Shown: positions 52,022-64,000, counted from the stretch's first letter. The stretch is 64,000 nucleotides of DNA from Patescibacteria group bacterium (GCA_049322675.1 JBMORM010000009.1:222132-286131); one strand, 5' to 3'. Notes: generated by a model not told the origin, from the letters alone. Translations and numbers: made by a program.

Positions 52022-52071
52022 TCAAAATTTTATACAATTGAATTGTTTTTATTTTAATAATAAAAAATAAA

Positions 52072-53664
52072 ATGTCGATATTTAATCTCTTCAAACCAAA
52101 ATCCAAACGCAACCCGGTTGTTTTGTTGATACTGGATGGCTGGGGTCATGCGACTGCGTGGGGCGGAAACGCGATTACGATGGGCGATACCAGAAATTTC
52201 AATTATTTATTTCAAAATTATCCCAATTTTTTACTCAGGGCGGCTGAAGATGCGGTCGGATTACCAACCACTTTGCCCGGCAATTCGGAAGTCGGTCATG
52301 TAGCGATTGGGGCCGGGAAAGTGGTGCATCAGCATTTGTTGATAATAAATAAGGCCCTGGAAGACGGATCGTTTTTTACCAATCCGGCATTTTTGGAAGG
52401 GATGAAAATTGCCAAAGAAAATAATAGCAAACTTCATATTTTGGGTATGCTTTCCAAAGGAACATTGGTTCATGGTGATATTGACCATGTTTATAACTTG
52501 GTGAAGTTGGCCAAAGATCAGGGTTTGAGCAAAGTGTATATTCACGGCTTTAGTGACGGTCGCGATTCACCTCAGAGAGACGGGTTTGAACAGACCTTTC
52601 GACTAAAAGAAAAATTAGCGGCATTGGGGGTGGGACAAATCGCGACGGTAACCGGAAGATATTTTGCCATGGACCGAAATAAACGATATGAAAGGACGCA
52701 GAGGACTTTTGAAGCGATGACCGAGGGCAAGGGTAAAAAATATAAAAATGCCGAGGATGTTTTTAGTGAAAATTACGCCAACGATGTCACGGATGAGTAT
52801 ATTGTGCCGTCAGTAGTGACTGACGAGCAAGGACAACCGATCGCCAAGATTGAAAATGGCGACGTAGTAATATTTGCCAATTTCCGGGCGGACCGTACTA
52901 GGCAAATTAGCAAGGCATTATGCAATGATGATTTCAACGGATTCAACCGCAGAGTCAGACCCAAAATTCATTTTGTTTCCATGGCTTTTTTCTCGCCGAA
53001 TCTGCCACAAAATATTGCTTTTAGGATAAATCCATCGGGACAGTGCTTGGCAGAGGTAATATCGGGAGCCGGACTAACTCAGTATCACATCGCCGAGTCG
53101 CAAAAATATCCGCATGTGACTTACTTTATAAATGGTGGAAAGGAAGAACCTTTTCAAGGCGAGTCGCGCCAGATGATTCCCTCGCGCGAAGATGTTACTT
53201 ACGATCGAATTCCTCGCATGAATATTGATAAGGTGACAAAAATTTTGGTTGATCAGATAACAAGTAAATTGTATGACAGTTATATTGTCAATTTTGCAAA
53301 TCCGGATATGGTTGGTCATACCGGCGATTTGTCAGCTACAATCGAAGCTTGCGAAGCGACGGATGAATGTTTGGGTGAAGTATGGGAGGCAGTAAAAAAA
53401 ATGAACGGTACCCTGATAGTTACCGCCGACCATGGCAATGCCGAACAAATGGTTGACATCAAGACAGGACGACCTGATCCCGAACATACCACCAACAAGG
53501 TACCATTTATCGTCGCCGACTGGGAGGGAAAATATCAAAAAAATGCAAAATTGCCTTCGGATTATGTTACGGAATTAAAGGATGTGGCACCAACTATGTT
53601 GCATCTTTTGGGTCTGGAAAAAGGAGAAGGAATGACTGGAACTAATCTTGTCGAAAAAAAATAA
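52072..53664 (+). CDS. gpmI: 2,3-bisphosphoglycerate-independent phosphoglycerate mutase (iPGM).
   Basis: The 530-aa product carries the iPGM hallmarks LLILDGWGH, SEVGHVAIGAG, HGFSDGRD, ADHGNAE and PDMVGHTG. ATG is at 52072 and a TAA stop follows. Confidence 0.9.
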   Translation: MSIFNLFKPKSKRNPVVLLILDGWGHATAWGGNAITMGDTRNFNYLFQNYPNFLLRAAEDAVGLPTTLPGNSEVGHVAIGAGKVVHQHLLIINKALEDGSFFTNPAFLEGMKIAKENNSKLHILGMLSKGTLVHGDIDHVYNLVKLAKDQGLSKVYIHGFSDGRDSPQRDGFEQTFRLKEKLAALGVGQIATVTGRYFAMDRNKRYERTQRTFEAMTEGKGKKYKNAEDVFSENYANDVTDEYIVPSVVTDEQGQPIAKIENGDVVIFANFRADRTRQISKALCNDDFNGFNRRVRPKIHFVSMAFFSPNLPQNIAFRINPSGQCLAEVISGAGLTQYHIAESQKYPHVTYFINGGKEEPFQGESRQMIPSREDVTYDRIPRMNIDKVTKILVDQITSKLYDSYIVNFANPDMVGHTGDLSATIEACEATDECLGEVWEAVKKMNGTLIVTADHGNAEQMVDIKTGRPDPEHTTNKVPFIVADWEGKYQKNAKLPSDYVTELKDVAPTMLHLLGLEKGEGMTGTNLVEKK

Positions 53665-53702
53665 TTAAGATAAAATTAATACTGTCTTAATATTTTTTTA
53701 AT

Positions 53703-53731
53703 AATTGATAGGGTGACACTATCAATTTTTT
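53703..53731 (+). terminator. Rho-independent terminator downstream of gpmI.
   Basis: AATTGATAG (53703-53711), a 7-nt loop GGTGACA, then CTATCAATT (53719-53727) form a perfect 9-bp stem, followed by a run of six T residues. Confidence 0.6.
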
Positions 53732-53750
53732 ATGCCAAGTGAAGGAGTGT

Positions 53751-54866
53751 ATGTTGCAGGATTATTTTAGTTCGGAAAAAAAAGATGAAGCATTTGTTGA
53801 TTCGGAAGATTATTTATCCAAATTAACTGATTACTTGGATCGAGAAAGAGAAAGCGTCGGTCTAGAAAAAAGGTTTGGGCTTGAGTTGTTCAAGCCGTGC
53901 AAAGAGATATTTTTGTTGGATTCCAATGATACTACTCAGGATTTTTTTCGGGATGTACAGGATCAATTTTCCAAACAGGTTGAGGTAAAAATATTTAGTC
54001 ATAAGGACGATTTTTTTGATGAATTGAATAGGCGAGTTGTTTTACCTTCTCACATATTTTTTTCTTCTCGTCACAGCGACCGAGAATATGATTCTGAGTT
54101 TCTAGCAGAATTTTTGCTTGAGTTGAGGGATCATTTTCGCGGTATGGAAAAACAAGGGTTAAAAAATGAAGATCGGCCGGAAATAATTTTTCTAAGTTCA
54201 GTAAAAGAAATTAGACAAGATGTAATACAAGAAAATCATGACGACATTGTTGACCATGTTATGTCAAAAGATTTTAGTTCAATCTGGCTAGCAGTCGAGA
54301 AATCAGGGAAAATCGAAGAAATCAGGGAAAATATCGATAAACTAGCTTTTGCCAGGGGTGGAGAGAAACTATCAGAAGGGCGTGACAATCTTGAAGAAAT
54401 AAATGACTTGAATGTGATTTATATTGACGATGATCACGATGTATTGAGTTCTTTGGAAAGATGCGGCGTCACGCGTAGCGATGAAATCGGTGAGGCAAAT
54501 TGCGTCGGATTTGATAGAGGGATAGACGCTTACAATTATTTTAAAAAAATAAAAGAAAGATTAAATGGTGGATTTTCCAGCAAGAAGTTTTTTATTATAC
54601 TTGATGGCAATCTAAAAAAGGACAAAAAATTGAAAAGTGGCGATTTGTTTTTTAACGAATTAAAAAAATTACTCAAAGACGACATTGACAATATTACTTT
54701 TATAGCAAATAGTGGCGACACCACCTGGAATATTCAGATGAAATACCAACATGGTTTTTTGAACAGCAAGAGGGGCATGCCAAAAGATGTGATGGGTTCT
54801 TTTGATTTGATTGTGGAAGAGATGGAGAAGTCAAAAAATGGTGGTAAAGACAGAGATTTGCTATAG
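53751..54866 (+). CDS. Acidic orphan protein (about 371 aa). The C-terminal half looks like a CheY-like receiver (REC) domain and the N-terminal half may be a second degenerate REC-like domain. There is no output domain.
   Basis: ATG 53751 is preceded by GAAGGAG (53741-53747); the ORF track opens at GTG 53739. REC landmarks occur in order in aa about 225-360: NVIYIDDDHDVL (acidic pair), FFIILDGNL (phospho-acceptor Asp position), ITFIANSGDTT (Ser/Thr position) and FLNSKRGMPKD (Lys position). Terminators lie on both sides. Confidence 0.45.
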   Translation: MLQDYFSSEKKDEAFVDSEDYLSKLTDYLDRERESVGLEKRFGLELFKPCKEIFLLDSNDTTQDFFRDVQDQFSKQVEVKIFSHKDDFFDELNRRVVLPSHIFFSSRHSDREYDSEFLAEFLLELRDHFRGMEKQGLKNEDRPEIIFLSSVKEIRQDVIQENHDDIVDHVMSKDFSSIWLAVEKSGKIEEIRENIDKLAFARGGEKLSEGRDNLEEINDLNVIYIDDDHDVLSSLERCGVTRSDEIGEANCVGFDRGIDAYNYFKKIKERLNGGFSSKKFFIILDGNLKKDKKLKSGDLFFNELKKLLKDDIDNITFIANSGDTTWNIQMKYQHGFLNSKRGMPKDVMGSFDLIVEEMEKSKNGGKDRDLL

Positions 54867-54893
54867 CCAGCCCAAGATAATATAATAATAGTT

Positions 54894-54934
54894 GCAGTCG
54901 CTAAAAATCCCCCTTTATTAGCGGCTGCTTTTTT
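54894..54934 (+). terminator. Rho-independent terminator downstream of the receiver-like gene.
   Basis: GCAGUCGCUA (54894-54903) pairs with UAGCGGCUGC (54919-54928) as a 10-bp stem with one G·U pair, followed by TTTTTTGTGTG. Confidence 0.55.
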
Positions 54935-54990
54935 GTGTGTTAAAAATATGGTATGAATGACTTGCAATATATTTTTATCGCGAGGAAAAA

Positions 54991-55173
54991 ATGAGCGAGA
55001 AAAATAACGTTTTTGGACCAACATTTTGGCAACGCGGGGTCAATCTTTTGTCGATCGTGGTTTTGTTGACCATATCGGCCGTGATAATCTGGTTTTTATT
55101 GAATCTGGCTACCGGAAACATTTATTTAAATAATGCCGGAAGGGACCAACAGAGAGTAGAAAGTCTTCGATAG
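54991..55173 (+). CDS. Small putative single-pass membrane protein (60 aa).
   Basis: AGGAAAAAATG RBS-like context; hydrophobic segment LLSIVVLLTISAVIIWFLLNLA; no recognisable family; could be spurious. Confidence 0.3.
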   Translation: MSEKNNVFGPTFWQRGVNLLSIVVLLTISAVIIWFLLNLATGNIYLNNAGRDQQRVESLR

Positions 55174-55185
55174 TTTTTGATTTTT

Positions 55186-58100
55186 TTATTGTTTTCTCCC
55201 CTGGTGCCTCTCCCACTTACCCCATTTTTTTTCGTAGGTATTTTTGTTTTTATTCCATAGTCTTTGATATTCTACGGATTGAATTTTGCCAAAGGAGGCG
55301 CCGCCGACATGGTGAATAAAAACATCATCGCAGCACATTACTTTTAGGCCAATTTGTCTCATTTTGTTGGCCAGATCATCGTCTTCAAACCAGCCACGCT
55401 CGTATTCTTCGCTAATGAGACCCACTTTTTCCAGGTTGGTTTTTTTGGCCATTGTACAAAACAGGGCGGTTACTTTTATGTCAAATACTTCTCCCGAATG
55501 TTGCCGACAATAATCGTCGGCAAAAATCTGCATTTGATTGAGATCCTGATAATCCACCGCGATTCTGGCCTCATTGCCGATATTGTTGGTCACCGGTCCC
55601 AACAAACCAAGTTTTGGTTCCCGTTGAAAATGCGACAATAATCCATACAACCAATTGTTGGTTACCACGGTGTCGTTGTTTAAAAAAACGATATATTCGC
55701 CATGGGCAATCTTGATTCCTTGGTTGTTGCCGATGGCAAACCCCTTATTGTCTATATTTAAAATAAGCTTTAGGTTGGAGTGCTTTTGGCTTAATGCTTG
55801 GAGATACTGCGGCGTGCCATCTTGGGAATTGTTGTCCACGACTATTATTTCCAGATTCGGATAGCGAGAGTAACGGAAAATACTGTCCAGACAGACTTTG
55901 GTAAGTTCTAGGTTGTTGAAAGTTACGACGATGATTGACACTTTGGGAAAAAGGTCAGTTATTTTTTGAGACAAAACTTCGACCCGTTGATCCCAGGAAT
56001 TGTTTTTGGCGATTTCGATTCTTTTTTGCGCGATCATTTCATTTTTTTCTGATAAAGCCTGTTTAATATTAGCGATAAATTCCGCGGGAGTATTGGAAAA
56101 ATAACAAATGTCCTGATACTCTTTCAATTCGGGCAGAGCCACCGTCACGACCGGTTTGCCGCTGCACATATATTCATAAAATTTAACCGGATTGGTGGCC
56201 AAGGTCAAATTATTGATTAAAAAGGGGATCAGACAGACATCGAAATGATATAGATATTTGGGCAGTTGATCATATTTTATTTCGCCGAGCAAATGAACGT
56301 TCTTGAGATTGGCAAGCGGCGACAAATTGGCGCCGCGGGTATTGCCAATCAAGACGAAGTTGTAATCGGGGTATGCCCGAGCGCAAGCAGCAACCAATTG
56401 GCTATCAAACCAGGAAGAAATAGCGCCATAATAGCCAATGATCGGGTGTTTAAGTTTGATTAATTGATTGGGTGATAATTTATGGAAATGATCAAAACCG
56501 GCGGCGTTTTTTGAGAGAACAACATTTTTGTTTAACAGTTTGGCTTTGGCAAACAAGGAATCGGAACTGGTCAGTACCAGGTCTGAAGTGGTGAGCAGTT
56601 TTTTTTCATCAGCCAGGACGGACGGCGAATCAGTGAAACCCGCATGTTCATCCATGCAATCATAGATAATTTTATTGTTTTCCAATTTTTCAACCAAAGA
56701 AATCCAAAAGGGCTGGTCGATTTTGCTAATCGTAGAATTGATGTAATATTTCTTTTTGACCAAATTGATGGAGCGTAAAAGGAGATTGATATCATCCGGA
56801 TCAGTTAAGGAAGAATTGTATATATCCAAATCGCGGGTGGCGGCCAAGGTTACCAGAAATATTCGATCGGATATTGGTTTGACCTGAATTTTTGATAGCA
56901 GCTCGACATCGCTCTCATCCGGCTGCGCGAGATTGTTGGTGGTACGAAAATAAAAGATACGAAAACCCATATCGGCCAAACGACAGGCGATTTGTTGGGG
57001 ACGTTGGAAACGATGTTCCCAGTCAATAATAGGGAAAACAAAAATGTCGCCAAGATGATCAGAAAATAACCCATTTTGATAATCATCGGTCTGGGGCAGA
57101 GTGCGCCCAAAGTCAATTTGAAATGGATTGGGGTCGGTTTTTAGATTGAGAAAATATTTGTAATACCAGGGGCGCAAGAGATTTTTGATCGAATCGGGCA
57201 GATGCGGGGCGACGGTTTGAATATTTTTTTTGGTACGGACGAGCAAGTTGTTTTTTTGGGATTTGACAAAGTCCAGTGATTGACGCAAAGGCTTGGTAGA
57301 ACGCCAAAAAAAGGCGTTTTCCAATAACTGTATTTTTTCTTTTAATTCTTGGTTTTGTATCTTCAGACAATCATTTTCGGCTTGGACAGTTTTGGAAGCA
57401 ATACTATTGATCAAATTTTTTCTGGGAGAAGGCGGGATATTTTCCAACAAGTTTAGATAAGATTGCCGATAGTGCTGATAATCTTTAATAACATTGCCTT
57501 GCAAGATTTGTTTTTGAAAATAAAATTCCGCTTGGATATATTTTTCAATCGAATCGAGCGGGATGGATAACGCCTCGAGGGCATCGGAAAAACTGGTATT
57601 TTGAGGGGTGAGATAGTCGTGGTTTTGGAAATAGAAAGAGGAAAGTGCGCGGAAAAAAATATAGTTGATGGGAATAGGAAACTCAAATGTCCACTCATAG
57701 TCGGACAGATAAAAAGTTTGGTTGGACCGGTCAAAGAAAAAATTATCAAAGTTTAGATCGAGACAGCCATAAGCCAGACATGGTTCTGTTTGGGGCCAGT
57801 CGGAACCAAAGAGACGAATGTAACTGTCAGAAGGTTTGACGTCGTAGATGAGATGCCCAGAGAATAATTTTTTGTACCTTTTTAGCAAAGACAAAAAATC
57901 CTCTTGGTGATGACTTTTCCAGGCGAGCTGTAATAGAGAAAATAAGCTCGGGTGTGGGTTGTAGGCGAATTTTATTCCTGAAGGAGTGAGGATAGGTGGC
58001 AAAATTTCGTAGGGTAAATTGTTTTTCTTTAAATACTCATATTTACCAACTAAGCCGGAAACAAATTTTTTGGCGGCCAAGGTAGCGGCTTGTTTGCAAA

Positions 58101-58188
58101 CAAAAAGTTGTCCGTTTTCTTTGACTACCGACGTTTCAAGCTGATATTGTTTTTTTCGCAAAGGATTATAACGAACGTATATTTTCAT
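55186..58188 (-). CDS. Multidomain glycosyltransferase (1000 aa): N-terminal small-molecule-kinase-like domain, coiled coil, GT4 (group 1) domain and C-terminal GT2 domain. It is likely a polymerase or terminating enzyme of an ABC-transporter-dependent glycan pathway.
   Basis: GT2 motifs: VSIIVVTFNNLELTKVCLDSI…EIIVVDNNSQDGT…YIVFLNNDTVV. GT4 C-terminal motif: NPVKFYEYMCSGKPVVT. The kinase-like motifs YGCLDLNFDNFFFD (HGDLxxxN-like) and SDYEWTFEF (IDxE/DFG-like) lie at aa about 143-175. A coiled coil IQNQELKEKIQLLEN is present. The start overlaps the upstream methyltransferase stop by 4 nt. Confidence 0.8.
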   Translation of the reverse strand: MKIYVRYNPLRKKQYQLETSVVKENGQLFVCKQAATLAAKKFVSGLVGKYEYLKKNNLPYEILPPILTPSGIKFAYNPHPSLFSLLQLAWKSHHQEDFLSLLKRYKKLFSGHLIYDVKPSDSYIRLFGSDWPQTEPCLAYGCLDLNFDNFFFDRSNQTFYLSDYEWTFEFPIPINYIFFRALSSFYFQNHDYLTPQNTSFSDALEALSIPLDSIEKYIQAEFYFQKQILQGNVIKDYQHYRQSYLNLLENIPPSPRKNLINSIASKTVQAENDCLKIQNQELKEKIQLLENAFFWRSTKPLRQSLDFVKSQKNNLLVRTKKNIQTVAPHLPDSIKNLLRPWYYKYFLNLKTDPNPFQIDFGRTLPQTDDYQNGLFSDHLGDIFVFPIIDWEHRFQRPQQIACRLADMGFRIFYFRTTNNLAQPDESDVELLSKIQVKPISDRIFLVTLAATRDLDIYNSSLTDPDDINLLLRSINLVKKKYYINSTISKIDQPFWISLVEKLENNKIIYDCMDEHAGFTDSPSVLADEKKLLTTSDLVLTSSDSLFAKAKLLNKNVVLSKNAAGFDHFHKLSPNQLIKLKHPIIGYYGAISSWFDSQLVAACARAYPDYNFVLIGNTRGANLSPLANLKNVHLLGEIKYDQLPKYLYHFDVCLIPFLINNLTLATNPVKFYEYMCSGKPVVTVALPELKEYQDICYFSNTPAEFIANIKQALSEKNEMIAQKRIEIAKNNSWDQRVEVLSQKITDLFPKVSIIVVTFNNLELTKVCLDSIFRYSRYPNLEIIVVDNNSQDGTPQYLQALSQKHSNLKLILNIDNKGFAIGNNQGIKIAHGEYIVFLNNDTVVTNNWLYGLLSHFQREPKLGLLGPVTNNIGNEARIAVDYQDLNQMQIFADDYCRQHSGEVFDIKVTALFCTMAKKTNLEKVGLISEEYERGWFEDDDLANKMRQIGLKVMCCDDVFIHHVGGASFGKIQSVEYQRLWNKNKNTYEKKWGKWERHQGRKQ

Positions 58189-59075
58189 ATTTGGGCAAAG
58201 ATTAAGTAGGAGTTGGCAAAAAAAGGAAATTGAGCGTTGTCGATAAGATTGTGTTGAACAGTTTTTTCATTGAATAATACTTCTCTGGTTCGGGCAAAAT
58301 CTGGGGTGGGATAGAGATTAGATTTTGGCAAATGATTGGCAGAAGGCAAATATTGATCAGAAAATATTTCTTCCGGCAATTTGTAATCCGGCAAGGGATA
58401 ATAATATTCCAAATGAGAAAAACCGGCTTGGGTAAACAAATTATTTAATTCCATTTTTGAAAAAGTAATAATATCCTTTTGATAAGGATATCCTTCGATT
58501 GATTCAAAAAAATGACCGGTGTGATCTTCTGCACAACCTGACCAGTATTTTAAACCAAATTTATTTTCAATCGCCAAAATAAAGGTTCCGCCAGGATTTA
58601 GATGTTTTTTGGCGGCGAGTAAAAAATCCAGATAAGAATTTTGGGAATCGATATATTTGCCGGAATATTCCAAGACGCCGATAGCGGTGATGTAATCGTA
58701 GGTGTCGGGAAGTTTTGACGAAATAAAGTTGTCGGAAATGATTGAAAGATTGGATTCGTTTGGAAAACGATTTTTAATAATCTCCGCCCGTCTTGAACTA
58801 AGCTCAACGGCGGTAACTGCCAATTTTTTGTCCAAAAATAATCCGGTTAGGGCACCACAGCCCGCTCCGATCTCCAATAATTTTTTTCCCGGGGTAAAAT
58901 CATACCAAGATAGAAGATGATGACGAACGGGAGAAAGGTGGTAGCGCAGGGCCCAGACGGGATTGTGTTCGATAATTTCTTGAATTTTGTTCGACTGATT
59001 TGGTTGCTTAAACAACGAGAGCAATTCATCTTCGACTGGACCGTCGGAATAGATTTGGGTTTTCTTATTGGTCAT
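58185..59075 (-). CDS. Class I SAM-dependent methyltransferase.
   Basis: The protein is 296 aa. Motif I is LLEIGAGCGALTGLF, followed by downstream acidic and GGTFIL motifs. Confidence 0.75.
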   Translation of the reverse strand: MTNKKTQIYSDGPVEDELLSLFKQPNQSNKIQEIIEHNPVWALRYHLSPVRHHLLSWYDFTPGKKLLEIGAGCGALTGLFLDKKLAVTAVELSSRRAEIIKNRFPNESNLSIISDNFISSKLPDTYDYITAIGVLEYSGKYIDSQNSYLDFLLAAKKHLNPGGTFILAIENKFGLKYWSGCAEDHTGHFFESIEGYPYQKDIITFSKMELNNLFTQAGFSHLEYYYPLPDYKLPEEIFSDQYLPSANHLPKSNLYPTPDFARTREVLFNEKTVQHNLIDNAQFPFFANSYLIFAQI

Positions 59076-59126
59076 TGAGACAAAATATTTTTATAATACA
59101 GGGGGGTAAATATTTTTTATTAATTT

Positions 59127-59975
59127 ATGAAAGAAACAATATTATCGATTGTTGTCGTTATTTACAATATGAGAAGAGAGATCGAAAGAACTCTGCACTC
59201 ATTAAGTATAGAATACCAGCGCGGGATAGACAAAAATGACTATGAGGTACTGGTGATTGACAATGGGTCGCGGCAAAGGTTGGAGGCGGATTTTTTTTCC
59301 GGATTCAAGGCGAATATCAAGTATCACTACCTGGAAAATGCCAACAGTTCGCCGGCGGCAGCGATGAATTTTGGTGCAAAGAAGGCGGAGGGTCAATATT
59401 TGGGATTGATGATCGACGGGGCCAGGTTGCTTACTCCGGGGATTTTGGCAAAAGCAAAAAATATTTTGTTGGCAAATGAGATGGCGACGGTCACAGTTTT
59501 GGGTTGGCATCTCGGTCCGAAGTTACAAAAAGATTCGGTACTGGATGGTTACAATCAGACAATCGAAGATGAGTTATTGAAAAAAATTGATTGGCCGAAC
59601 GATGGTTACAAATTATTTGATATCGCGACCAGGGCCGGTTCAAATATGGACGGGTGGCAGGGACAAATTGCTGAGAGTAATTGTTTTTTTGTAAGCAAGA
59701 AAAGATATGATGAGTTGGGCGGGCTGAACGAAAAATTTGTCACCGCCGGCGGGGGAATCGTGAATTTGGATTTTTACAAACGGGCGGTAGAGAGTCCGGA
59801 TGGAAAAAATTTTGGCTTGATAGACGAAGGGACTTTTCACCAGATACACAGCCAGGCGATTTCGAGCAATGCTTCGATACAAAAAAATAATCCTTTTCGG
59901 GATTATTTGGTTGAATACAAAAAAATCTATGGCTACGATTATGTTGTGCCAACGGTCAAATACGAATATCATTGA
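59127..59975 (+). CDS. Family 2 glycosyltransferase (282 aa), encoded on the opposite strand from the surrounding cluster.
   Basis: LSIVVVIYNMRREIERTLHSL…YEVLVIDNGS…LGLMIDGARLL is a typical GT2 N-terminal core. A possible -10 TATAAT at 59092-59097 lies upstream. Confidence 0.75.
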   Translation: MKETILSIVVVIYNMRREIERTLHSLSIEYQRGIDKNDYEVLVIDNGSRQRLEADFFSGFKANIKYHYLENANSSPAAAMNFGAKKAEGQYLGLMIDGARLLTPGILAKAKNILLANEMATVTVLGWHLGPKLQKDSVLDGYNQTIEDELLKKIDWPNDGYKLFDIATRAGSNMDGWQGQIAESNCFFVSKKRYDELGGLNEKFVTAGGGIVNLDFYKRAVESPDGKNFGLIDEGTFHQIHSQAISSNASIQKNNPFRDYLVEYKKIYGYDYVVPTVKYEYH

Positions 59976-59982
59976 TAATCGG

Positions 59983-60849
59983 TTAATCGATCTTGCGACC
60001 AAGCAAACGATAATATTTGTCCCGCATCTTCCAAAATTTGGATGATTTCATAGTGGCGATTTCTTTTTGTAATTGCCTGATTTGGACTTTGATTTTTTGG
60101 TCGTTGGCGGCGCTTTCTTTCACGATTTTTTGAATAGTATCTTGATATTGATTGACAAGTTTATGACGGCTTTCGATTTGATGTTTCTCTTTTAAAGAGT
60201 AATTTTTATAATAATCTTCCAGGTCGAGAGCGATAAAATCGGCGAGAGGACTTTTTTGACCCAAAAAGACCACTCCCAAGCCGTGGGAGTGGGAAAATTG
60301 GTAGGTTGAATATTTCTTTTGAAGTATTTTCCAAAGTTTGTAAACACCGAAATCTGATCTTTTTTCCACGATGTCATGGAATAAAATTATTCCGTTGGCG
60401 GACATTTTGGGAAGCCAGGTTTGATAGTCATGGGCAACGGCTTCGTAGGTATGATAACCGTCGATATGCAACAAATCAATGCCGGAGTCGGCAAATTTGG
60501 GGACGACCTTGTCAAATGTTTGTTTCAAGAGAGAAGTATTCAACTTGGGATAATAGGTTGAGTTGATATTTTTTACTTGGGAAAATATTTTTTGATCATA
60601 TTGGCCGGTATGTTTATCACCTTGCCAGGTGTCAATGCCGTAGATTTTGGTTTTTAGTTTTAAATCTTTGATCGCTTGGCAAAAAGAAAAAAAGGAAATT
60701 CCCCGGGCAACACCAAGTTCGACAATCACTTTGGGCTTGATATTGGCGACCAGATCATAGGCAAAATATATATGTCCCAACCAAGGATATGATGGTTGGT
60801 TGAGAATTTGTTGATATTCGAAGATAGGATGATATAGTCGCCAATTCAT
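59983..60849 (-). CDS. Class I SAM-dependent O-methyltransferase of the TylF/MycF/CmcI-like family, with a C-terminal coiled coil.
   Basis: VIVELGVARGISFFSF…IYGIDTW…DLLHIDGYHTYEAVAHDYQTWLPKMSANGIILFHDI. The C-terminal tail …QKIKVQIRQLQKEIATMK is a predicted coiled coil. Confidence 0.65.
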   Translation of the reverse strand: MNWRLYHPIFEYQQILNQPSYPWLGHIYFAYDLVANIKPKVIVELGVARGISFFSFCQAIKDLKLKTKIYGIDTWQGDKHTGQYDQKIFSQVKNINSTYYPKLNTSLLKQTFDKVVPKFADSGIDLLHIDGYHTYEAVAHDYQTWLPKMSANGIILFHDIVEKRSDFGVYKLWKILQKKYSTYQFSHSHGLGVVFLGQKSPLADFIALDLEDYYKNYSLKEKHQIESRHKLVNQYQDTIQKIVKESAANDQKIKVQIRQLQKEIATMKSSKFWKMRDKYYRLLGRKID

Positions 60850-60859
60850 AAGAAAATAT

Positions 60860-61447
60860 TTATAAGGATAGGATTTTTTTAGCTAAATAATTTTTTAATT
60901 TTTTCTTAATTTTTTCCGGGAGATTATAATCAGGTTTTTGCATAACGATCAGGCTATCTTTCCAGGTGTTATCCGGATCATTATTCCAGTCGGTGGCAGC
61001 CGATAATACTTTGAAATCGGAATATTTGGCGATGGCGGTTAGGCCGTCGGAGAAAAAGCGATAACAATCAACCGGATAGCGGTGAGCCGGGCCGGATGAT
61101 GGGGCGATTAGACAACATAATCCATGGTTTTTCAAGACTCGATGAATTTCCATGATGGTAATCCAAAAATATTCGATATGCTCCAGAGCTTGACCGGAAA
61201 TTATGACATCGTATGAATTGGAGGGAATCTCTTGCCAGTTGTAAATATCGGCTACCACCAAATCGACATTTTTGCCGGCGGTAACGTCCAAACCGGTGTA
61301 TTGCCATTTTGGTTGATCGAACAATTGTTTGTAAGATCCATTTACATCCTGACTGCCGACATCCAAAATCCGAAGGGACTGATCGATTTTATCCGACAGA
61401 AATTTATCGACAAAGGATTTCATTTTTTGCAAAGAAGAAGAGTGCAT
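60860..61447 (-). CDS. SAM-dependent methyltransferase of the Methyltransf_11-like family.
   Basis: 195 aa; LRILDVGSQDVNGSY…YDVIISGQALEHIEY…LKNHGLCCLIAP. Confidence 0.65.
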   Translation of the reverse strand: MHSSSLQKMKSFVDKFLSDKIDQSLRILDVGSQDVNGSYKQLFDQPKWQYTGLDVTAGKNVDLVVADIYNWQEIPSNSYDVIISGQALEHIEYFWITIMEIHRVLKNHGLCCLIAPSSGPAHRYPVDCYRFFSDGLTAIAKYSDFKVLSAATDWNNDPDNTWKDSLIVMQKPDYNLPEKIKKKLKNYLAKKILSL

Positions 61448-61456
61448 GTTGAGAGA

Positions 61457-62632
61457 TTAATAAATTTTTATTTCATGCGAAAAATCGACCAAACCATGGG
61501 AATCAAAGGCAGAGTTTTTGATATGAAAGAGAGCGCAGTTGTCCTGAAGCAGAAAAAAATTGCTTTTGGTTTGATCGCAGATAGACAGGGAAATAGAGAA
61601 GGTACCGGAAGCCAGGGTTTGGTTGATGATAAATTCAACCGATATTTTTCCCGGCTTGATCCGGCCGGTGTCGATTTTTTGCAAGGCGGTATTGGTAACA
61701 AAAATATTGTGATTATCACTATCGCGCACAAAGAGACCAAAGATCGGTTTTTCCAGCGGGGAGGCAACGTCAAAATCACAGCTGATTTTGATCGGTTTGC
61801 CCGACTCAAAAACCGGTTGAGAGTTGTTTTTATCATCTCGTATTTCAACCCGCAGCAGTTTCAACTCGGCCGAGGTGACCAAAATATTATCGCGTTTGAT
61901 AGAACGAACCTCTACTTCTTGCCGATAACGCGAGAGCACATTACCCACTGAGTCATCATGTTTGAGAGTCCCCTGCTCCAACCAAAGACATCGGTCGCAG
62001 ATTTTTTCAATATTGGACAAGCTGTGACTGACGAATAAGACCGTTTTTTTCTTGGACTTGAATTCATAAAATTTTTTGAAACATTTTTTTTGAAAATCAA
62101 GATCCCCTACCGCCAAGACTTCATCAAGAAGAAGAATGTCAAAATCGGCTTGGATGGCAATAGAAAAAGCCAGGCGGACAAACATGCCTGAAGAGAAATT
62201 TTTGATTTTTGTGTCCAAAAATTTTTCCAATTCAGCGAAGCCGATGATTTCGGGTAATTTTTTGGCAATCTGTTTTTGGTGAAGACCAAGCAGGGTGCCA
62301 TAAAGAAAAATGTTTTCGTAAGCGGTCAATTGGGGTTGAAAGCCGACACCCAGTTCAAGAAAGGGACTGAGACGACCGGCGGTCTTGATCGAGCCGGAAG
62401 TAGGAGCATAGATGCTGGCCAAGATTTTCAACAAAGTGCTTTTGCCACTACCATTGCGGCCGATAATGCCGACAAATTCACCGGCTTCGACGGAAAAACT
62501 AATATCATCCAATACGGTCAACAATTCTTGATTGCTTTTAAAACTAGCTAGTAGACTTTGTTTCAATGTACTGTGCCGCTCGTGATTGATGACAAATTGC
62601 TTAAATAAATTTTTGACTTCAATGATGGGCAT
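61457..62632 (-). CDS. wzt: Polysaccharide-export ABC transporter ATP-binding protein (Wzt/TagH family) with a C-terminal Wzt_C-like carbohydrate-binding beta-sandwich domain.
   Basis: Walker A GIIGRNGSGKSTLLKIL, signature FSSGMFVRLAFSIA and Walker B ILLLDEVLAVGD identify the ATPase. A C-terminal extension of about 150 aa (…KLLRVEIRDDKNNSQPVFESGKPIKISCDFDV…ISLSICDQ…) follows the NBD. Confidence 0.85.
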   Translation of the reverse strand: MPIIEVKNLFKQFVINHERHSTLKQSLLASFKSNQELLTVLDDISFSVEAGEFVGIIGRNGSGKSTLLKILASIYAPTSGSIKTAGRLSPFLELGVGFQPQLTAYENIFLYGTLLGLHQKQIAKKLPEIIGFAELEKFLDTKIKNFSSGMFVRLAFSIAIQADFDILLLDEVLAVGDLDFQKKCFKKFYEFKSKKKTVLFVSHSLSNIEKICDRCLWLEQGTLKHDDSVGNVLSRYRQEVEVRSIKRDNILVTSAELKLLRVEIRDDKNNSQPVFESGKPIKISCDFDVASPLEKPIFGLFVRDSDNHNIFVTNTALQKIDTGRIKPGKISVEFIINQTLASGTFSISLSICDQTKSNFFLLQDNCALFHIKNSAFDSHGLVDFSHEIKIY

Positions 62633-62651
62633 GGGGGAAGTTGTGTTAAAT

Positions 62652-63251
62652 TTAAGAGTAAAATAACTGCTTTAGAGCGACGATTTGCGGGGACAATTCA
62701 AGAAAGTATTCTTCGGCGGTTTGGTCGTGAAAATATTTACCGGTGGTTTTACTGATATAAAGGTGACGCATAGGTAGGTGAATATCGATTGGTCCATGCG
62801 GCTGGCTAGTGAGAGTGTACTCTCTTTTGTTTTCAATTTGATCGATTTGGCCATCTGGCTGAAGGAGCGTCCAGTAATCAATATAATAAAAATCTTTTTG
62901 GCCGCCATATTTGTTGGCGAGGTCGATATAGAATTTTTCCATCAAAGCAGCAATTTGTTCTGGGGTTAAATCTTTTTCATTTTTTTCTCCCAAAGCGACG
63001 CGGCGGACATGAGTCGGATCAAAATCTTCGCCGGAGAAAAAGACGGCAGTGTCTTGGCTGAGTACTGGATATGGATATTGGTCAACATATGGAAGAATTT
63101 TTTTCTGGGAATTTTCTCGGCCATCACGACCATTTTCTTCTACTTCGATATAATCCGGGACAAATTGGATTGGTAAATTGGGATCAAGGCGGGAAAACAA
63201 TTTTTGCAAGCGAGTTAGTTTTCCTTGGTTGGATGAAGCGAAGTAGAGCAT
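62652..63251 (-). CDS. Hypothetical protein (199 aa) with weak Ham1/RdgB (ITPase/non-canonical NTP pyrophosphatase)-like N-terminal motifs.
   Basis: MLYFASSNQGKLTRLQKLF matches the Ham1 start (ivfATgN.gKl.E). IEVEENGRDGRENSQKKI and PVLSQDTAVFFSG loosely match the E..G.tf.ENA..KA and DDSGL.vdaL.G blocks. The match is weak and needs a profile search. Confidence 0.3.
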   Translation of the reverse strand: MLYFASSNQGKLTRLQKLFSRLDPNLPIQFVPDYIEVEENGRDGRENSQKKILPYVDQYPYPVLSQDTAVFFSGEDFDPTHVRRVALGEKNEKDLTPEQIAALMEKFYIDLANKYGGQKDFYYIDYWTLLQPDGQIDQIENKREYTLTSQPHGPIDIHLPMRHLYISKTTGKYFHDQTAEEYFLELSPQIVALKQLFYS

Positions 63252-63266
63252 ATTAACAATTTATAA

Positions 63267-63343
63267 TTTTCAATTTTTAATTTTCAAATGGAAAAAGCAG
63301 TAAATTTAATATTTTTTTTAAATTTGCTTAGAAATTGGAAATT
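63267..63343. repeat. Second, degenerate copy of the TTTCCAA/TTGGAAA heptamer element, lying in the wzm to Ham1-like intergenic region.
   Basis: TTTTCAA TTTTTAA TTTTCAA ATGGAAA lie at 63267-63294 and TTAGAAA TTGGAAA at 63328-63341. The 13-mer GAAATTGGAAATT (63331-63343) is identical to 4734-4746. The arrangement on the + strand is the same as in the first copy at 4638-4747. Confidence 0.5.
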
Positions 63344-63346
63344 CTT

Positions 63347-64000
63347 TCAGATCTGTTCGGCGAATTTTTTTTGTTGGGTTTGGAAGAGAAAGAGGCCAGT
63401 GACGAAGATTAGCAAGACTAGGGCAAACTGCGGCCAGGGGTAATACCAGTTTGGTTGATGGGAGAAATCCAGAAAGACGGCGCGGAAATCGGTGATGATC
63501 TGAGCGAGGGGATTTAGCATAACCAAGTTTAGATATTGCGCCGGAATGAGGCTGAGAGCATAGATGATCGGAGTCAGATAAAATAAAATTTGCAAAAATA
63601 ACTCCCAGATATAGTTGAAGTCACGCCAATAAACAAACAGAACAGACAAAATCAAAGCGGAGCCGAAGCTCAATAGCCACAATTCAAGGATATAGAAGAC
63701 AATCAAAAACGTTTTGGCTTGAAAAACATCAACTTGAAAATAGGACATGAGCAGGATTAAAACAAGGAGGTTGAAAAATAAGTTGATCAAAGCGTTCAAG
63801 GAAGTAACAATGACGACAATGATACGCGGAAAATAGATTTTTTTGATCAAATGGCTTTTGCTGACTACCGCTTGCATACCGTTGGTAGTGGTTTCAGCAA
63901 AAAAACTCCAAAGCATGATGCCGATCAGGAGATAATTGGCAAAATTTTCGATATTACCGCCGAGTTTGAGCATTTTGCCGAAAACGATGTAGAGCACCAG
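63347..64000 (-). CDS. wzm: ABC-2 type polysaccharide-export permease (Wzm/TagG-like). It is 5'-truncated, so the N-terminus lies beyond the window end.
   Basis: Multi-TM protein. …VFGKMLKLGGNIENFANYLLIGIMLWSFF… corresponds to the post-TM1 conserved region of ABC-2 permeases, implying about 50 missing N-terminal residues. The stop is at 63347. Confidence 0.7.
   Translation of the reverse strand: MVLYIVFGKMLKLGGNIENFANYLLIGIMLWSFFAETTTNGMQAVVSKSHLIKKIYFPRIIVVIVTSLNALINLFFNLLVLILLMSYFQVDVFQAKTFLIVFYILELWLLSFGSALILSVLFVYWRDFNYIWELFLQILFYLTPIIYALSLIPAQYLNLVMLNPLAQIITDFRAVFLDFSHQPNWYYPWPQFALVLLIFVTGLFLFQTQQKKFAEQI

What the first reader, a model, noticed from the sequence alone, without database searches (positions are those of the whole stretch)
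55186..64000. O-antigen-style ABC-transporter-dependent glycan pathway with a capping toolkit: Wzt C-terminal carbohydrate-binding domain, three methyltransferases and a kinase-like domain
The - strand cluster encodes Wzm, Wzt with a Wzt_C-like extension, three distinct SAM methyltransferases, a GT2 and a kinase-like/GT4/GT2 fusion. In the E. coli O9a and Klebsiella paradigm, chain length is set by a terminating kinase and methyltransferase (WbdD), and the Wzt C-terminal domain recognises the methyl(-phosphate) cap. The same functional set is present here in a different arrangement. It lies next to a battery of lectin-domain surface proteins, which raises the possibility that the capped glycan and the LamG proteins interact, for example by self-glycan binding or surface-layer assembly.
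Basis: partly seen in the sequence, partly recalled or inferred. Interest (0 to 1): 0.65.

Follow-up and report, generated by a model that had tools for sequence, protein, structure and literature searches.

The report
Capped surface-glycan export pathway, candidate-phylum bacterium
This is a gene cluster from an uncultured Patescibacteria bacterium that most likely builds a surface sugar chain, marks its finished end with a chemical cap, and exports only capped chains; it is a rearranged example of a mechanism already worked out in Klebsiella and E. coli.

Summary
The region encodes Wzm (cut by the window end), Wzt with a real Wzt_C domain (PF14524, 75 bits against a 30-bit cut-off), three SAM methyltransferases, a GT2 and a 1000-aa protein.

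The first ~250 residues of the 1000-aa protein match no Pfam, NCBIfam or PDB sequence. They model confidently (pLDDT 92) as an aminoglycoside-phosphotransferase/protein-kinase fold, with the K...D-x4-N...D catalytic set conserved.

The closest characterised system is Klebsiella pneumoniae O7 ORF6 (Kelly 2024), not WbdD. ORF6 is methyltransferase, cryptic kinase, coiled coil and GTs, and adds a methyl-phosphate cap. The 296-aa methyltransferase is homologous to the ORF6 methyltransferase (E 2e-33). The kinase-like family aligns distantly with the ORF6 kinase (hhalign 83%), placing D144 on the validated catalytic D441.

In 72 informative metagenomic loci the kinase-like domain is preceded by or fused to this methyltransferase in 70. 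Of 35 neighbouring Wzt proteins, 33 carry Wzt_C.

The host probably lacks LPS (general knowledge). A 90%-identical sister genome adds a WbaP-type primer and a Wzy_C+TPR ligase. I read this as an S-layer-type protein or wall glycan rather than O antigen. It is a new variant of a known kind. The LamG link is untested.

The parts
63347..64000 (-). wzm, the ABC-2 type permease. Its N-terminus lies beyond the window end.
   Evidence: Pfam ABC2_membrane 6.8e-5 on the fragment. NCBIfam galactan Wzm/RfbD 2.7e-12. The 258-aa sister orthologue passes the Pfam cut-off.
62652..63251 (-). Ham1-like (ITPase-family) gene inserted between wzm and wzt. Probably not part of the pathway.
   Evidence: Pfam Ham1p_like 3.4e-6 over residues 2-88 only. 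The gene is absent from the same position in the sister genomes L002, L119 and L120.
61457..62632 (-). wzt: ABC ATPase (residues 1 to ~245) plus a C-terminal carbohydrate-binding domain.
   Evidence: ABC_tran 1.5e-21 and Wzt_C 5.7e-21. PDB 8dku/7k2t full-length Aquifex Wzt, E 1e-59.
61484..61870 (-). Wzt_C domain (residues 255-383 of Wzt), the predicted cap-recognition module.
   Evidence: PF14524 at 75.4 bits against a 30.4-bit cut-off, covering profile positions 8-142 of 143.
60860..61447 (-). Small class I SAM methyltransferase (195 aa). Its role is unassigned; sugar O-methylation is inferred.
   Evidence: Methyltransf_11 2.7e-9. No PDB or NCBIfam relative.
59983..60849 (-). Methyltransf_24/CmcI-like O-methyltransferase (residues 1 to ~215) with a C-terminal coiled coil and an SSKFWKMR helix. 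It is a candidate second terminator or ruler protein.
   Evidence: PF13578 2e-26 and RMNT_CmcI 1.8e-5. In 5 of 6 contexts looked up, full-length homologues sit directly upstream of large polymerase-type GTs in Wzm/Wzt loci. In two of these, a Wzt_C-bearing Wzt is directly upstream.
59127..59975 (+). Stand-alone GT2 (282 aa) on the opposite strand. A role as adaptor or side-chain glycosyltransferase is inferred.
   Evidence: Glycos_transf_2 6.1e-12. Position and orientation are conserved in L001, L002 and L119-L123.
58185..59075 (-). 296-aa methyltransferase of the K. pneumoniae O7 ORF6-N type, the predicted phosphate methyltransferase of the terminator. Its stop codon overlaps the next gene's start (ATGA).
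   Evidence: BLASTP against O7 ORF6-N rebuilt from the paper's supplement: 32% identity, E 2e-33. Against the Cyanobacterium stanieri orthologue: 36% identity, E 2e-45. The LEIGAGCGA and PLPDYKLP motifs are shared. In 70 of 72 informative loci this methyltransferase lies immediately upstream of, or is fused to, the kinase-like domain.
57439..58188 (-). Kinase-like domain (residues 1 to ~250 of the 1000-aa protein), the predicted glycan-terminus kinase.
   Evidence: No Pfam, NCBIfam or PDB sequence hit. AF2 model pLDDT 92. Foldseek against PDB: APH(3')-Ia E 1e-5, probability 1.0, followed by macrolide phosphotransferases and protein kinases. K32, D144, N149 and D163 are conserved. hhalign against the O7 kinase gives 83% and aligns D144 with D441.
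57232..57414 (-). Coiled-coil spacer (residues ~259-319) between the terminator and polymerase modules.
   Evidence: AF2 helices 259-291 and 293-319. Family members have a coiled coil at the same place. Profile hits to coiled-coil PDB chains.
55954..57036 (-). GT4 (GT-B) glycosyltransferase module (residues ~385-745).
   Evidence: Glyco_trans_1_4 2.3e-10 and Glycos_transf_1 3.5e-6. NCBIfam TuaH-like 3.4e-26. The GT4-GT2 pair is conserved at 38-45% identity across phyla and lies near wzm/wzt in many of these loci.
55285..55947 (-). GT2 (GT-A) glycosyltransferase module (residues 748-968).
   Evidence: Glycos_transf_2 5.6e-29. Nearest PDB relatives are chondroitin synthase and other GT2 enzymes.

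Best explanation
This is an ABC-transporter-dependent glycan assembly line in which chain termination and export are coupled. Steps 2 to 6 are inferred from homology, fold, domain architecture and synteny. None was measured.

1. Priming. A polyprenol-phosphate-linked primer is made by a WbaP-type transferase. That gene lies just outside the window and was seen only in a 90%-identical sister genome.
2. Elongation. The chain is extended in the cytoplasm by the GT4-GT2 pair at the C-terminus of the 1000-aa protein. The + strand GT2 probably makes an adaptor or a side branch.
3. Termination. At the other end of a short coiled coil, the N-terminal APH-like kinase domain phosphorylates a hydroxyl of the non-reducing terminal sugar. 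The translationally coupled 296-aa methyltransferase then methylates that phosphate. The resulting methyl-phosphate cap stops elongation, as in K. pneumoniae O7 ORF6 and E. coli O9a WbdD.
4. Further methylation. The Methyltransf_24 protein carries its own coiled coil, and with the small Methyltransf_11 enzyme it adds further O-methyl groups, at the terminus or along the chain.
5. Export. The Wzt_C domain of Wzt binds the cap, and Wzm/Wzt exports only finished chains.
6. Destination. From general knowledge, Patescibacteria have no LPS. The exported glycan is therefore most likely passed by the neighbouring Wzy_C+TPR ligase (sister genome) to a surface or S-layer protein or another envelope acceptor.
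For: - Wzt_C is well above threshold, and Wzt resembles full-length Aquifex Wzt.
- The N-terminal domain has a confident kinase-fold model and kinase-only top structural matches.
- K32, D144, N149 and D163 are invariant or nearly so. The D-N-D spacing is 5/14, against 5/13 in APH and protein kinases (for the positions; APH/PKA numbering from general knowledge).
- The 296-aa methyltransferase is homologous to the ORF6-O7 methyltransferase (E 2e-33 and 2e-45). That enzyme pair was shown biochemically to add methyl-phosphate and to be required for export (PMC11231755).
- Profile-profile alignment of the kinase-like family with the ORF6-O7 kinase gives 83% probability, E 8.9e-6, and places D144 on the validated D441.
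- Of 72 metagenomic loci with enough upstream sequence, 45 have this methyltransferase directly upstream and 25 have it fused. The gene order is wzm, wzt, methyltransferase, kinase, GTs.
- 33 of 35 neighbouring Wzt proteins carry Wzt_C.
- Fusion partners of the kinase-like domain are polymerase-type GTs: two GT2 domains, GT4, WsaF, RgpF.
- The terminator lies at the distal end of a coiled coil from the GT modules, as the paper describes for all characterised systems.
- The sister genome has the WbaP-type primer and the Wzy_C+TPR ligase next to wzm. The same parts list makes up Geobacillus and Paenibacillus S-layer glycan clusters (PMC2943079).
Against: - No biochemistry or glycan structure exists for this organism.
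[quoted passage not shown] The hhalign link covers only the N-terminal half, because the O7 sequences had to be rebuilt from machine-read supplement text that stops there.
- Here the methyltransferase and kinase are separate polypeptides. The CBM-like domain of ORF6-O7 is absent. The coiled coil (about 60 residues) looks short for a ruler (my judgement; its length was not compared with characterised rulers).
- Two extra methyltransferases leave the chemical nature of the recognised cap open.
- The primer and ligase genes were seen only in the sister genome, not in the window.
- The metagenomic loci include near-duplicates, so the number of independent loci is lower than 72.
Confidence: 0.7

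Rival explanations
1. The pathway is the same, but the cap read by Wzt_C is an O-methyl sugar made by the coiled-coil Methyltransf_24 protein, as with the E. coli O8 WbdD methyl cap or Geobacillus WsaE. On this reading, the kinase and the 296-aa methyltransferase add a different or additional modification.
For: The Methyltransf_24 protein has its own coiled coil and an SKFWKMR helix, like the stand-alone kinase-type terminators. In L125 and L127 a homologue sits exactly between a Wzt_C-bearing Wzt and the polymerase GT, with no kinase or 296-aa-type methyltransferase present. The methyl-cap precedent is described in PMC2943079.
Against: In three of six contexts the Methyltransf_24 homologue accompanies a short Wzt without Wzt_C. 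The methyltransferase-kinase pair tracks Wzt_C much more tightly, in 33 of 35 loci. The two caps may also coexist.
Confidence: 0.15
2. This is a generic, cap-independent teichoic-acid or exopolysaccharide exporter. The methyltransferases and the N-terminal domain decorate the chain but play no part in termination or export.
For: The best NCBIfam hits for Wzt are TagH-type teichoic-acid exporters, all far below their cut-offs. The GT4 module resembles the teichuronic-acid enzyme TuaH, E 3.4e-26, also below its cut-off.
Against: TagH-type and other cap-independent NBDs lack Wzt_C (general knowledge), whereas here it scores 75 bits. The terminator-type architecture and its synteny with Wzt_C are conserved.
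Confidence: 0.05
3. The capped glycan is a ligand for the neighbouring LamG/lectin-domain giant proteins, through self-glycan binding or surface-layer assembly.
For: More than 23 Laminin_G_3 domains, plus F5/8 type C and CHB_HEX_C domains, lie in the giant ORFs upstream of the cluster. The order cluster, 371-aa gene, iPGM, giant ORF is kept in the sister contig L119.
Against: The sister genome is 90% identical, so shared synteny carries little weight. No LamG protein lies within 10 kb of the cluster in any of 117 related loci. iPGM and an unrelated gene separate the two sets, and they are on opposite strands.
Confidence: 0.1
4. The product is a classical LPS O antigen ligated to lipid A-core.
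For: All characterised methyltransferase-kinase terminators come from LPS O-antigen pathways. A Wzy_C-domain protein lies next to the cluster in the sister genome.
Against: The closest genomes are Patescibacteria, which from general knowledge lack LPS synthesis and an outer membrane. The Wzy_C protein carries TPR repeats, like the O-oligosaccharyltransferases WsfB and PglL. The primer is WbaP-type, as in S-layer glycan clusters.
Confidence: 0.03

Closest known systems
K. pneumoniae O7 ORF6 (methyltransferase, cryptic kinase, CBM, coiled coil, two GT2 modules; methyl-phosphate terminator and polymerase; Kelly et al. 2024, PMC11231755)
   Same: The methyltransferase is homologous (32% identity, E 2e-33, shared SAM-loop and PLPDYKLP motifs). 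An unannotated APH-like kinase domain follows it, with a D-x4-N catalytic loop aligned on the validated D441. A coiled coil comes next, then C-terminal polymerase GT modules. The partner transporter is Wzm/Wzt with a Wzt_C domain. Related metagenomic ORFs (L103, L113) have the full single-polypeptide methyltransferase, kinase, GT2, GT2 layout.
   Different: Here the methyltransferase is a separate gene (ATGA overlap). There is no CBM/Ig-like domain. The GT modules are GT4+GT2, not GT2+GT2. The kinase domain belongs to a much more divergent sequence family (hhalign only 83%). Two more methyltransferases are present. From general knowledge, the host lacks LPS.
E. coli O9a / K. pneumoniae O3 WbdD with Wzt-CBD
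   Same: The logic is the same. A kinase and a methyltransferase make a methyl-phosphate cap at the end of a coiled-coil ruler. The cap stops polymerisation and is the export signal read by the Wzt C-terminal domain.
   Different: No sequence similarity was detected: WbdD chains are absent from the PDB sequence hits of both proteins. WbdD carries no GT modules and recruits the separate polymerase WbdA. Its kinase is described as differing from the O7 type in sequence and structure.
K. pneumoniae O12 / Raoultella WbbB (terminator, coiled coil and polymerase GTs in one polypeptide)
   Same: The architectural principle is shared: a terminating enzyme at the N-terminal distal end, a coiled-coil spacer, and two polymerising GT modules at the C-terminus of one protein (as described).
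   Different: The WbbB terminator is a beta-Kdo glycosyltransferase (GT99), not a kinase. Its GT families differ.
S-layer glycoprotein glycan (slg) clusters of Geobacillus stearothermophilus NRS 2004/3a and Paenibacillus alvei (PMC2943079)
   Same: These are hosts without LPS (Gram-positive). The parts list matches: WbaP-type primer, Wzm/Wzt export, a methyl cap on the non-reducing end made by a methyltransferase joined to polymerase GTs (WsaE), and a Wzy_C-domain O-oligosaccharyltransferase with TPR repeats (WsfB).
   Different: The cap there is 2-O-methyl-rhamnose, with no kinase. No rml genes or S-layer gene were seen here. The primer and ligase were observed only in the sister genome.

Membership tests
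Wzm/Wzt polysaccharide ABC exporter with Wzt_C carbohydrate-binding domain | The nucleotide-binding subunit has an ABC_tran domain. | tested here: met
   PF00005, E 1.5e-21, 77.9 bits.
Wzm/Wzt polysaccharide ABC exporter with Wzt_C carbohydrate-binding domain | A C-terminal Wzt_C (PF14524) domain scores above the Pfam gathering score. | tested here: met
   75.4 bits against 30.4, residues 255-383. The alignment to full-length Aquifex Wzt 8dku runs to residue 351.
Wzm/Wzt polysaccharide ABC exporter with Wzt_C carbohydrate-binding domain | An ABC-2 permease (Wzm) is encoded nearby. | tested here: met
   The fragment at 63347-64000 scores 22.9 bits (cut-off 26.9) because it is truncated. NCBIfam Wzm gives 2.7e-12. 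The full sister orthologue scores 41 bits.
Wzm/Wzt polysaccharide ABC exporter with Wzt_C carbohydrate-binding domain | The C-terminal domain binds the modified non-reducing terminus and is required for export. | not testable with these tools
   This needs binding and export assays.
ORF6-O7-type methyltransferase-kinase chain terminator | A methyltransferase domain homologous to ORF6-O7-N, with the E/DxGxGxG SAM loop. | tested here: met
   BLASTP E 2e-33 against K. pneumoniae O7 and 2e-45 against the C. stanieri orthologue. LEIGAGCGA is shared, so window G70/G72 correspond to G91/G93.
ORF6-O7-type methyltransferase-kinase chain terminator | A domain directly after the methyltransferase that matches no annotated family, has an APH/AmiN-like kinase fold and carries a catalytic Asp. 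| tested here: met
   AF2 pLDDT 92. Foldseek top hits are APH(3')-Ia and macrolide phosphotransferases. hhalign 83%, E 8.9e-6, aligns D144 with D441. Pairwise and profile-versus-sequence tests were not significant, so homology is probable but not proven.
ORF6-O7-type methyltransferase-kinase chain terminator | Methyltransferase and kinase lie in one polypeptide. | tested here: not met
   They are separate genes with a 4-nt ATGA overlap. They are fused in 25 of 72 related loci and in P0037.
ORF6-O7-type methyltransferase-kinase chain terminator | A coiled coil separates the terminator from the GT modules or the membrane end. | tested here: met
   AF2 helices 259-291 and 293-319. Family members have a coiled coil at the same place.
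ORF6-O7-type methyltransferase-kinase chain terminator | An Ig-like CBM lies between the kinase and the coiled coil. | tested here: not met
   The kinase domain ends near residue 250 and the helix starts at 259, so there is no room for such a domain.
ORF6-O7-type methyltransferase-kinase chain terminator | ATP- and SAM-dependent addition of methyl-phosphate to the terminal sugar. | not testable with these tools
   An enzymatic assay is required.
WbdD (E. coli O9a) family | Detectable sequence homology to the WbdD methyltransferase or kinase domains. | tested here: not met
   phmmer and a profile search against all PDB chains returned no WbdD chain for either protein. WbdD structures are in the PDB (general knowledge; PMC3482155 reports the structure).
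S-layer-type protein O-glycosylation (slg) cluster | A WbaP-type primer and a Wzy_C (with or without TPR) oligosaccharyltransferase lie in the cluster. | tested here: inconclusive
   Both genes are present next to wzm in the 90%-identical sister genome: Bac_transf 1e-64, and Wzy_C 2.3e-19 plus TPR. The window ends inside wzm, so their presence in this genome is inferred.
S-layer-type protein O-glycosylation (slg) cluster | A glycosylated S-layer or surface protein acceptor. | not tested
   No acceptor was identified.

The most novel reading that the evidence does not exclude
An LPS-less candidate-phyla bacterium runs a dual-terminator pathway. Two coiled-coil proteins, the O-methyltransferase and the kinase-GT fusion with its partner methyltransferase, co-assemble and install a compound cap of O-methyl sugar plus methyl-phosphate. 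Wzt_C reads that cap. The exported chain is then attached by a Wzy_C+TPR transferase to the giant lectin-domain surface proteins or to an S-layer. The kinase-like domain would also define a large family of glycan-terminus kinases with no database model: 1435 representative clusters at 50% identity, including sequences from human-gut metagenomes.
Probability: 0.15. Interest if true: 0.6.

Novelty: new variant of a known kind. Interest (0 to 1): 0.4.

Why it matters
- It extends the terminate-then-export mechanism of O-antigen ABC pathways to Patescibacteria. These are uncultured, reduced-genome bacteria whose cell surfaces are almost unknown.
- It shows that the cryptic kinase described in 2024 for K. 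pneumoniae O7 has a much larger, more divergent sister family with no Pfam or NCBIfam model.
- In related loci that family is nearly always paired with the same methyltransferase and usually with a Wzt_C-bearing transporter. This gives a simple genomic signature for predicting capped glycans in metagenomes.
- It adds another arrangement to the known shuffling of terminator, ruler and polymerase modules.
- It does not overturn any current model.

Tried and rejected
- **Word-indexed homologue search.** Searching with residues 1-380 found nothing. The exhaustive representative search was needed instead.
- **Sequence searches against PDB.** The N-terminal domain alone gave no hits. Its family profile gave only coiled-coil noise.
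- **Genome scan query.** The single genome scan was run with the whole 1000-aa protein and mostly returned GT4-GT2 relatives.
- **Direct tests of the kinase domain against O7.** The O7 ORF6-N sequence rebuilt from the supplement gave BLASTP E 0.03 and a non-significant hmmsearch. Only profile-profile comparison gave a signal. The rebuilt sequences contain machine-reading errors and stop at the catalytic loop.
- **Sequence beyond the window end.** The 374-kb NCBI contig holding the window could not be retrieved; only the 10-kb Logan contig was returned. Sister contigs were used instead.
- **Promoter and terminator scan.** It gave counts close to shuffled expectation and was not used.
- **Rejected readings.** I rejected membership of the WbdD family, a classical LPS O antigen, and a conserved LamG-cluster association.

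Full report
**What is in the sequence**

ORF listing and Pfam/NCBIfam scans show the following genes on the - strand between 55186 and the window end:

| Coordinates | Product |
|---|---|
| 63347 to the window end | ABC-2 permease fragment (Wzm), cut by the window end |
| 62652-63251 | Ham1-like gene |
| 61457-62632 | Wzt |
| 60860-61447 | 195-aa Methyltransf_11 enzyme |
| 59983-60849 | 288-aa Methyltransf_24/CmcI-like enzyme |
| 58185-59075 | 296-aa Methyltransf_12/23 enzyme |
| 55186-58188 | 1000-aa protein; its start overlaps the previous stop (ATGA) |

It is convergent with the Methyltransf_24 gene, with 7 bp between the stops. A 51-bp gap separates it from the divergent 296-aa methyltransferase gene.

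Upstream on the + strand lie five giant ORFs of 1542 (partial), 3304, 2316, 3624 and 6442 aa. Four of them carry at least 23 Laminin_G_3 stretches in total. DUF2341, Lcl_C, F5/8 type C and CHB_HEX_C domains are also present. These ORFs are followed by iPGM and a 375-aa protein with no family hit.

The Wzt C-terminus is a true Wzt_C domain. PF14524 scores E 5.7e-21 and 75.4 bits against a 30.4-bit gathering score. The whole protein aligns with full-length Aquifex aeolicus Wzt (8dku/7k2t) at E 1e-59 over residues 11-351.

Residues 1 to about 380 of the 1000-aa protein match nothing in Pfam, NCBIfam or PDB sequences. The word-indexed homologue search also found nothing. An exhaustive HMMER search of 1.84 billion representative proteins found 1435 relatives at E <= 1e-3 and 408 at E <= 1e-10. 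Most are stand-alone proteins of 300-330 aa.

A 48-sequence alignment (A1) shows these conserved positions:
- Invariant: Y4, R11, T19, K32, W166, P173.
- Nearly invariant: D144, N149, D163, Y164, E165.

In motif terms this is G-C-L-D-L-N-F-D-N followed 14 residues later by I-D-Y-E-W. That is a lysine, a D-x4-N catalytic loop and a DFG-like aspartate. From general knowledge the D-N-D spacing in APH enzymes and protein kinases is 5/13; here it is 5/14. All these residues are present in the window protein.

AlphaFold2 with this alignment gave a model with mean pLDDT 92. Foldseek against the PDB returned APH(3')-Ia (E 1e-5, probability 1.0, TM about 0.4-0.5), then macrolide 2'-phosphotransferases, and protein kinases such as RIPK2 and EphA3. 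The kinase-fold claim is therefore confirmed. No Pfam model covers the domain in any of the 48 members.

**What the N-terminal domain is attached to**

After the kinase-like domain every family member has a coiled coil. It usually ends in an S-K-x-W-K helix. In the window protein, AF2 predicts helices at 259-291 and 293-319.

Longer family members are fused, after the coiled coil, to polymerase-type glycosyltransferases: two GT2 domains, GT4, two GT2 domains plus WsaF, or RgpF. One member, P0037, has a homologue of the window's 296-aa methyltransferase fused in front of the kinase-like domain.

**The closest characterised system**

Kelly et al. 2024 (PMC11231755) showed that K. pneumoniae O7 ORF6 has this layout: methyltransferase, a 223-residue domain matching no annotated family, a CBM, a coiled coil and two GT2 modules. 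Their findings:
- The unannotated domain resembles the APH-family kinase AmiN.
- The protein phosphorylates O3 of the terminal rhamnose and methylates the phosphate in vitro.
- D441A abolishes phosphorylation, and in vivo gives non-exported polymer.

I rebuilt the first ~440-460 residues of ORF6-O7 and of the Cyanobacterium stanieri orthologue from the machine-read alignment in the paper's supplement. I corrected the SAM loop using the published mutagenesis primer.

The window's 296-aa methyltransferase matches both rebuilt sequences:
- 32% identity over 227 residues against ORF6-O7, E 2e-33.
- 36% identity over 306 residues against the C. stanieri orthologue, E 2e-45.
- The shared features include LEIGAGCGA and the unusual C-terminal PLPDYKLP and NSF/YL motifs.

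The kinase parts are not significantly similar pairwise (E 0.03) or by profile against single sequences. A profile-profile comparison was more informative. It set A1 against nine rebuilt ORF6-N orthologue segments and gave 83% probability, E 8.9e-6, over 120 columns. It aligns the R-K...E-T strand, the Y-x-G-x-x-L element and the catalytic loop, so that window D144 falls on D441.

I conclude that the methyltransferase belongs to the ORF6-O7-N family. The kinase-like domain is a probable but distant homologue of the O7 kinase, occupying the same position.

**Context across many loci**

A metagenome scan with the motifs L[ISL]DYEWTF and G[CV][LI]D[LI]N[FL]DN confirmed 422 relatives, of which 80 loci were kept. 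I searched six-frame ORFs of these loci with the window proteins. The results:
- 72 loci have at least ~500 bp upstream of the kinase-like domain.
- In 45 of these, a homologue of the 296-aa methyltransferase ends at the kinase gene's start.
- In 25 it is fused in the same ORF.
- One locus (L115) has frameshifted fragments of the methyltransferase, and one (L089) has a different N-terminal extension.

The usual gene order is wzm, wzt, methyltransferase, kinase, GTs. Two ORFs (L103, 1335 aa; L113, 1351 aa) reproduce the full ORF6-O7 layout. In L041 the same GT4-GT2 module as in the window follows a stand-alone kinase-coiled-coil protein. This shows that the window protein is one of several module arrangements.

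Of 35 Wzt proteins taken from these loci, 33 carry Pfam Wzt_C. The two exceptions are short Wzt proteins. Several loci are near-duplicates, so these counts overstate independence. The loci were selected only on kinase motifs, however, so the coupling is not built in by the selection.

**Host and the rest of the cluster**

The closest genome is a 'Patescibacteria group bacterium' MAG (DAIRGB01), with 90% protein identity. An identical copy of the Methyltransf_24 protein is recorded from an NCBI Patescibacteria MAG on a 374-kb contig. I could not retrieve that contig.

Sister contigs (L002, L119, L120) keep the same gene order, except that they lack the Ham1-like gene. They also show what lies beyond the window end:
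- A WbaP-type polyprenol-phosphate sugar-phosphate transferase directly upstream of wzm (Bac_transf, E 1e-64).
- A divergent 736-aa protein with a Wzy_C domain (E 2.3e-19) and TPR repeats.

WbaP-type primer, Wzm/Wzt, a methyl cap and a Wzy_C/TPR O-oligosaccharyltransferase are the parts list of Geobacillus and Paenibacillus S-layer glycan clusters (PMC2943079). From general knowledge, Patescibacteria lack LPS. I therefore infer that the product is a protein-linked or wall-linked glycan rather than an O antigen.

The GT4-GT2 module (residues 381-1000) is conserved at 38-45% identity in many phyla. It lies near wzm/wzt in many of these loci, with varied N-terminal extensions. No sugar-nucleotide genes were seen, so the sugars are unknown.

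**The other two methyltransferases**

The Methyltransf_24 protein has a C-terminal coiled coil ending in SSKFWKMR, the same feature as the stand-alone kinase proteins. Full-length homologues are common in candidate-phyla genomes.

I looked up six genomic contexts:
- In five, the gene sits directly upstream of a large polymerase-type GT in a Wzm/Wzt locus.
- In two of those five (L125, L127), a Wzt_C-bearing Wzt is directly upstream and no kinase is present.
- In the other three, Wzt is short and lacks Wzt_C.
- The sixth context is a Wzx-type locus.

This protein may therefore be a second, O-methyl-type terminator or ruler. The evidence is thin. I have no evidence for the role of the 195-aa Methyltransf_11 enzyme.

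**The LamG proposal**

The LamG battery is real and its adjacency is kept in the sister contig, but that genome is too closely related for this to mean much. None of 117 related loci has a LamG protein within 10 kb. The proposed interaction remains speculation. Covalent attachment of the glycan by the Wzy_C+TPR enzyme is at least as likely.

**Verdict**

The better reference is K. pneumoniae O7 ORF6 rather than WbdD. The mechanism class, termination-coupled ABC export, is well supported by homology, fold, architecture and synteny. The methyl-phosphate chemistry is inferred and not shown.

The cluster is a new variant of a known kind for these reasons:
- The methyltransferase and kinase are split into two genes.
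- The kinase is fused through a short coiled coil to GT4-GT2.
- An extra coiled-coil methyltransferase is present.
- The kinase family is divergent and has no database model.
- The host is likely to lack LPS.

Noticed in passing
window 62652-63251 (-): A Ham1/ITPase-like gene sits between wzm and wzt. Only the N-terminal 88 residues match the family. It is absent from the same position in the 90%-identical sister contigs L002, L119 and L120, so it is a recent insertion here or a loss there.
   Followed up: partly
window 5-52021 (+): Five consecutive giant ORFs: 1542 aa (partial), 3304, 2316, 3624 and 6442 aa. Four carry at least 23 Laminin_G_3 stretches in total, and DUF2341, Lcl_C, Toxin_R_bind_N, F5/8 type C and CHB_HEX_C domains are also present. 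The 6442-aa ORF overlaps the previous one by 4 nt. The 2316-aa ORF has almost no recognisable domain.
   Followed up: partly
window 59983-60200 (-); also C-termini of P0002, P0005 and most A1 members: A short helix motif, S-(S/K)-K-F-W-K-(M/L)-R, directly follows the coiled coil in two unrelated enzymes: the Methyltransf_24 protein and the stand-alone kinase-like proteins. The 1000-aa protein has a variant, FFWRSTKPLR. It may be a membrane-association or docking helix. This was not tested.
   Followed up: no
L125 6604-12460; L127 4581-9008: In two other loci that also encode giant YfhO/PMT-type proteins, the order is Wzt with Wzt_C, then a Methyltransf_24 coiled-coil protein, then a large GT, with no kinase. 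This suggests a methyl-only terminator family.
   Followed up: partly
L067, L079, L082 and other human-gut metagenome contigs: The methyltransferase-kinase-GT2x2 module with a Wzt_C transporter is common in human-gut metagenome assemblies. Several near-identical contigs come from different samples. The organisms were not identified.
   Followed up: no
window 53739-54866 (+): A 375-aa protein with no family hit, apart from a faint LiaH-like coiled-coil match. It is conserved between iPGM and the glycan cluster in the sister contigs (371 aa called in L119 and L001).
   Followed up: no
window 52000-64000: GC skew stays clearly positive on the + strand (0.12-0.21), although the genes from 55186 onwards are on the - strand. 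The sense strand of the glycan cluster is therefore C-rich relative to G, unlike the giant + strand genes.
   Followed up: no
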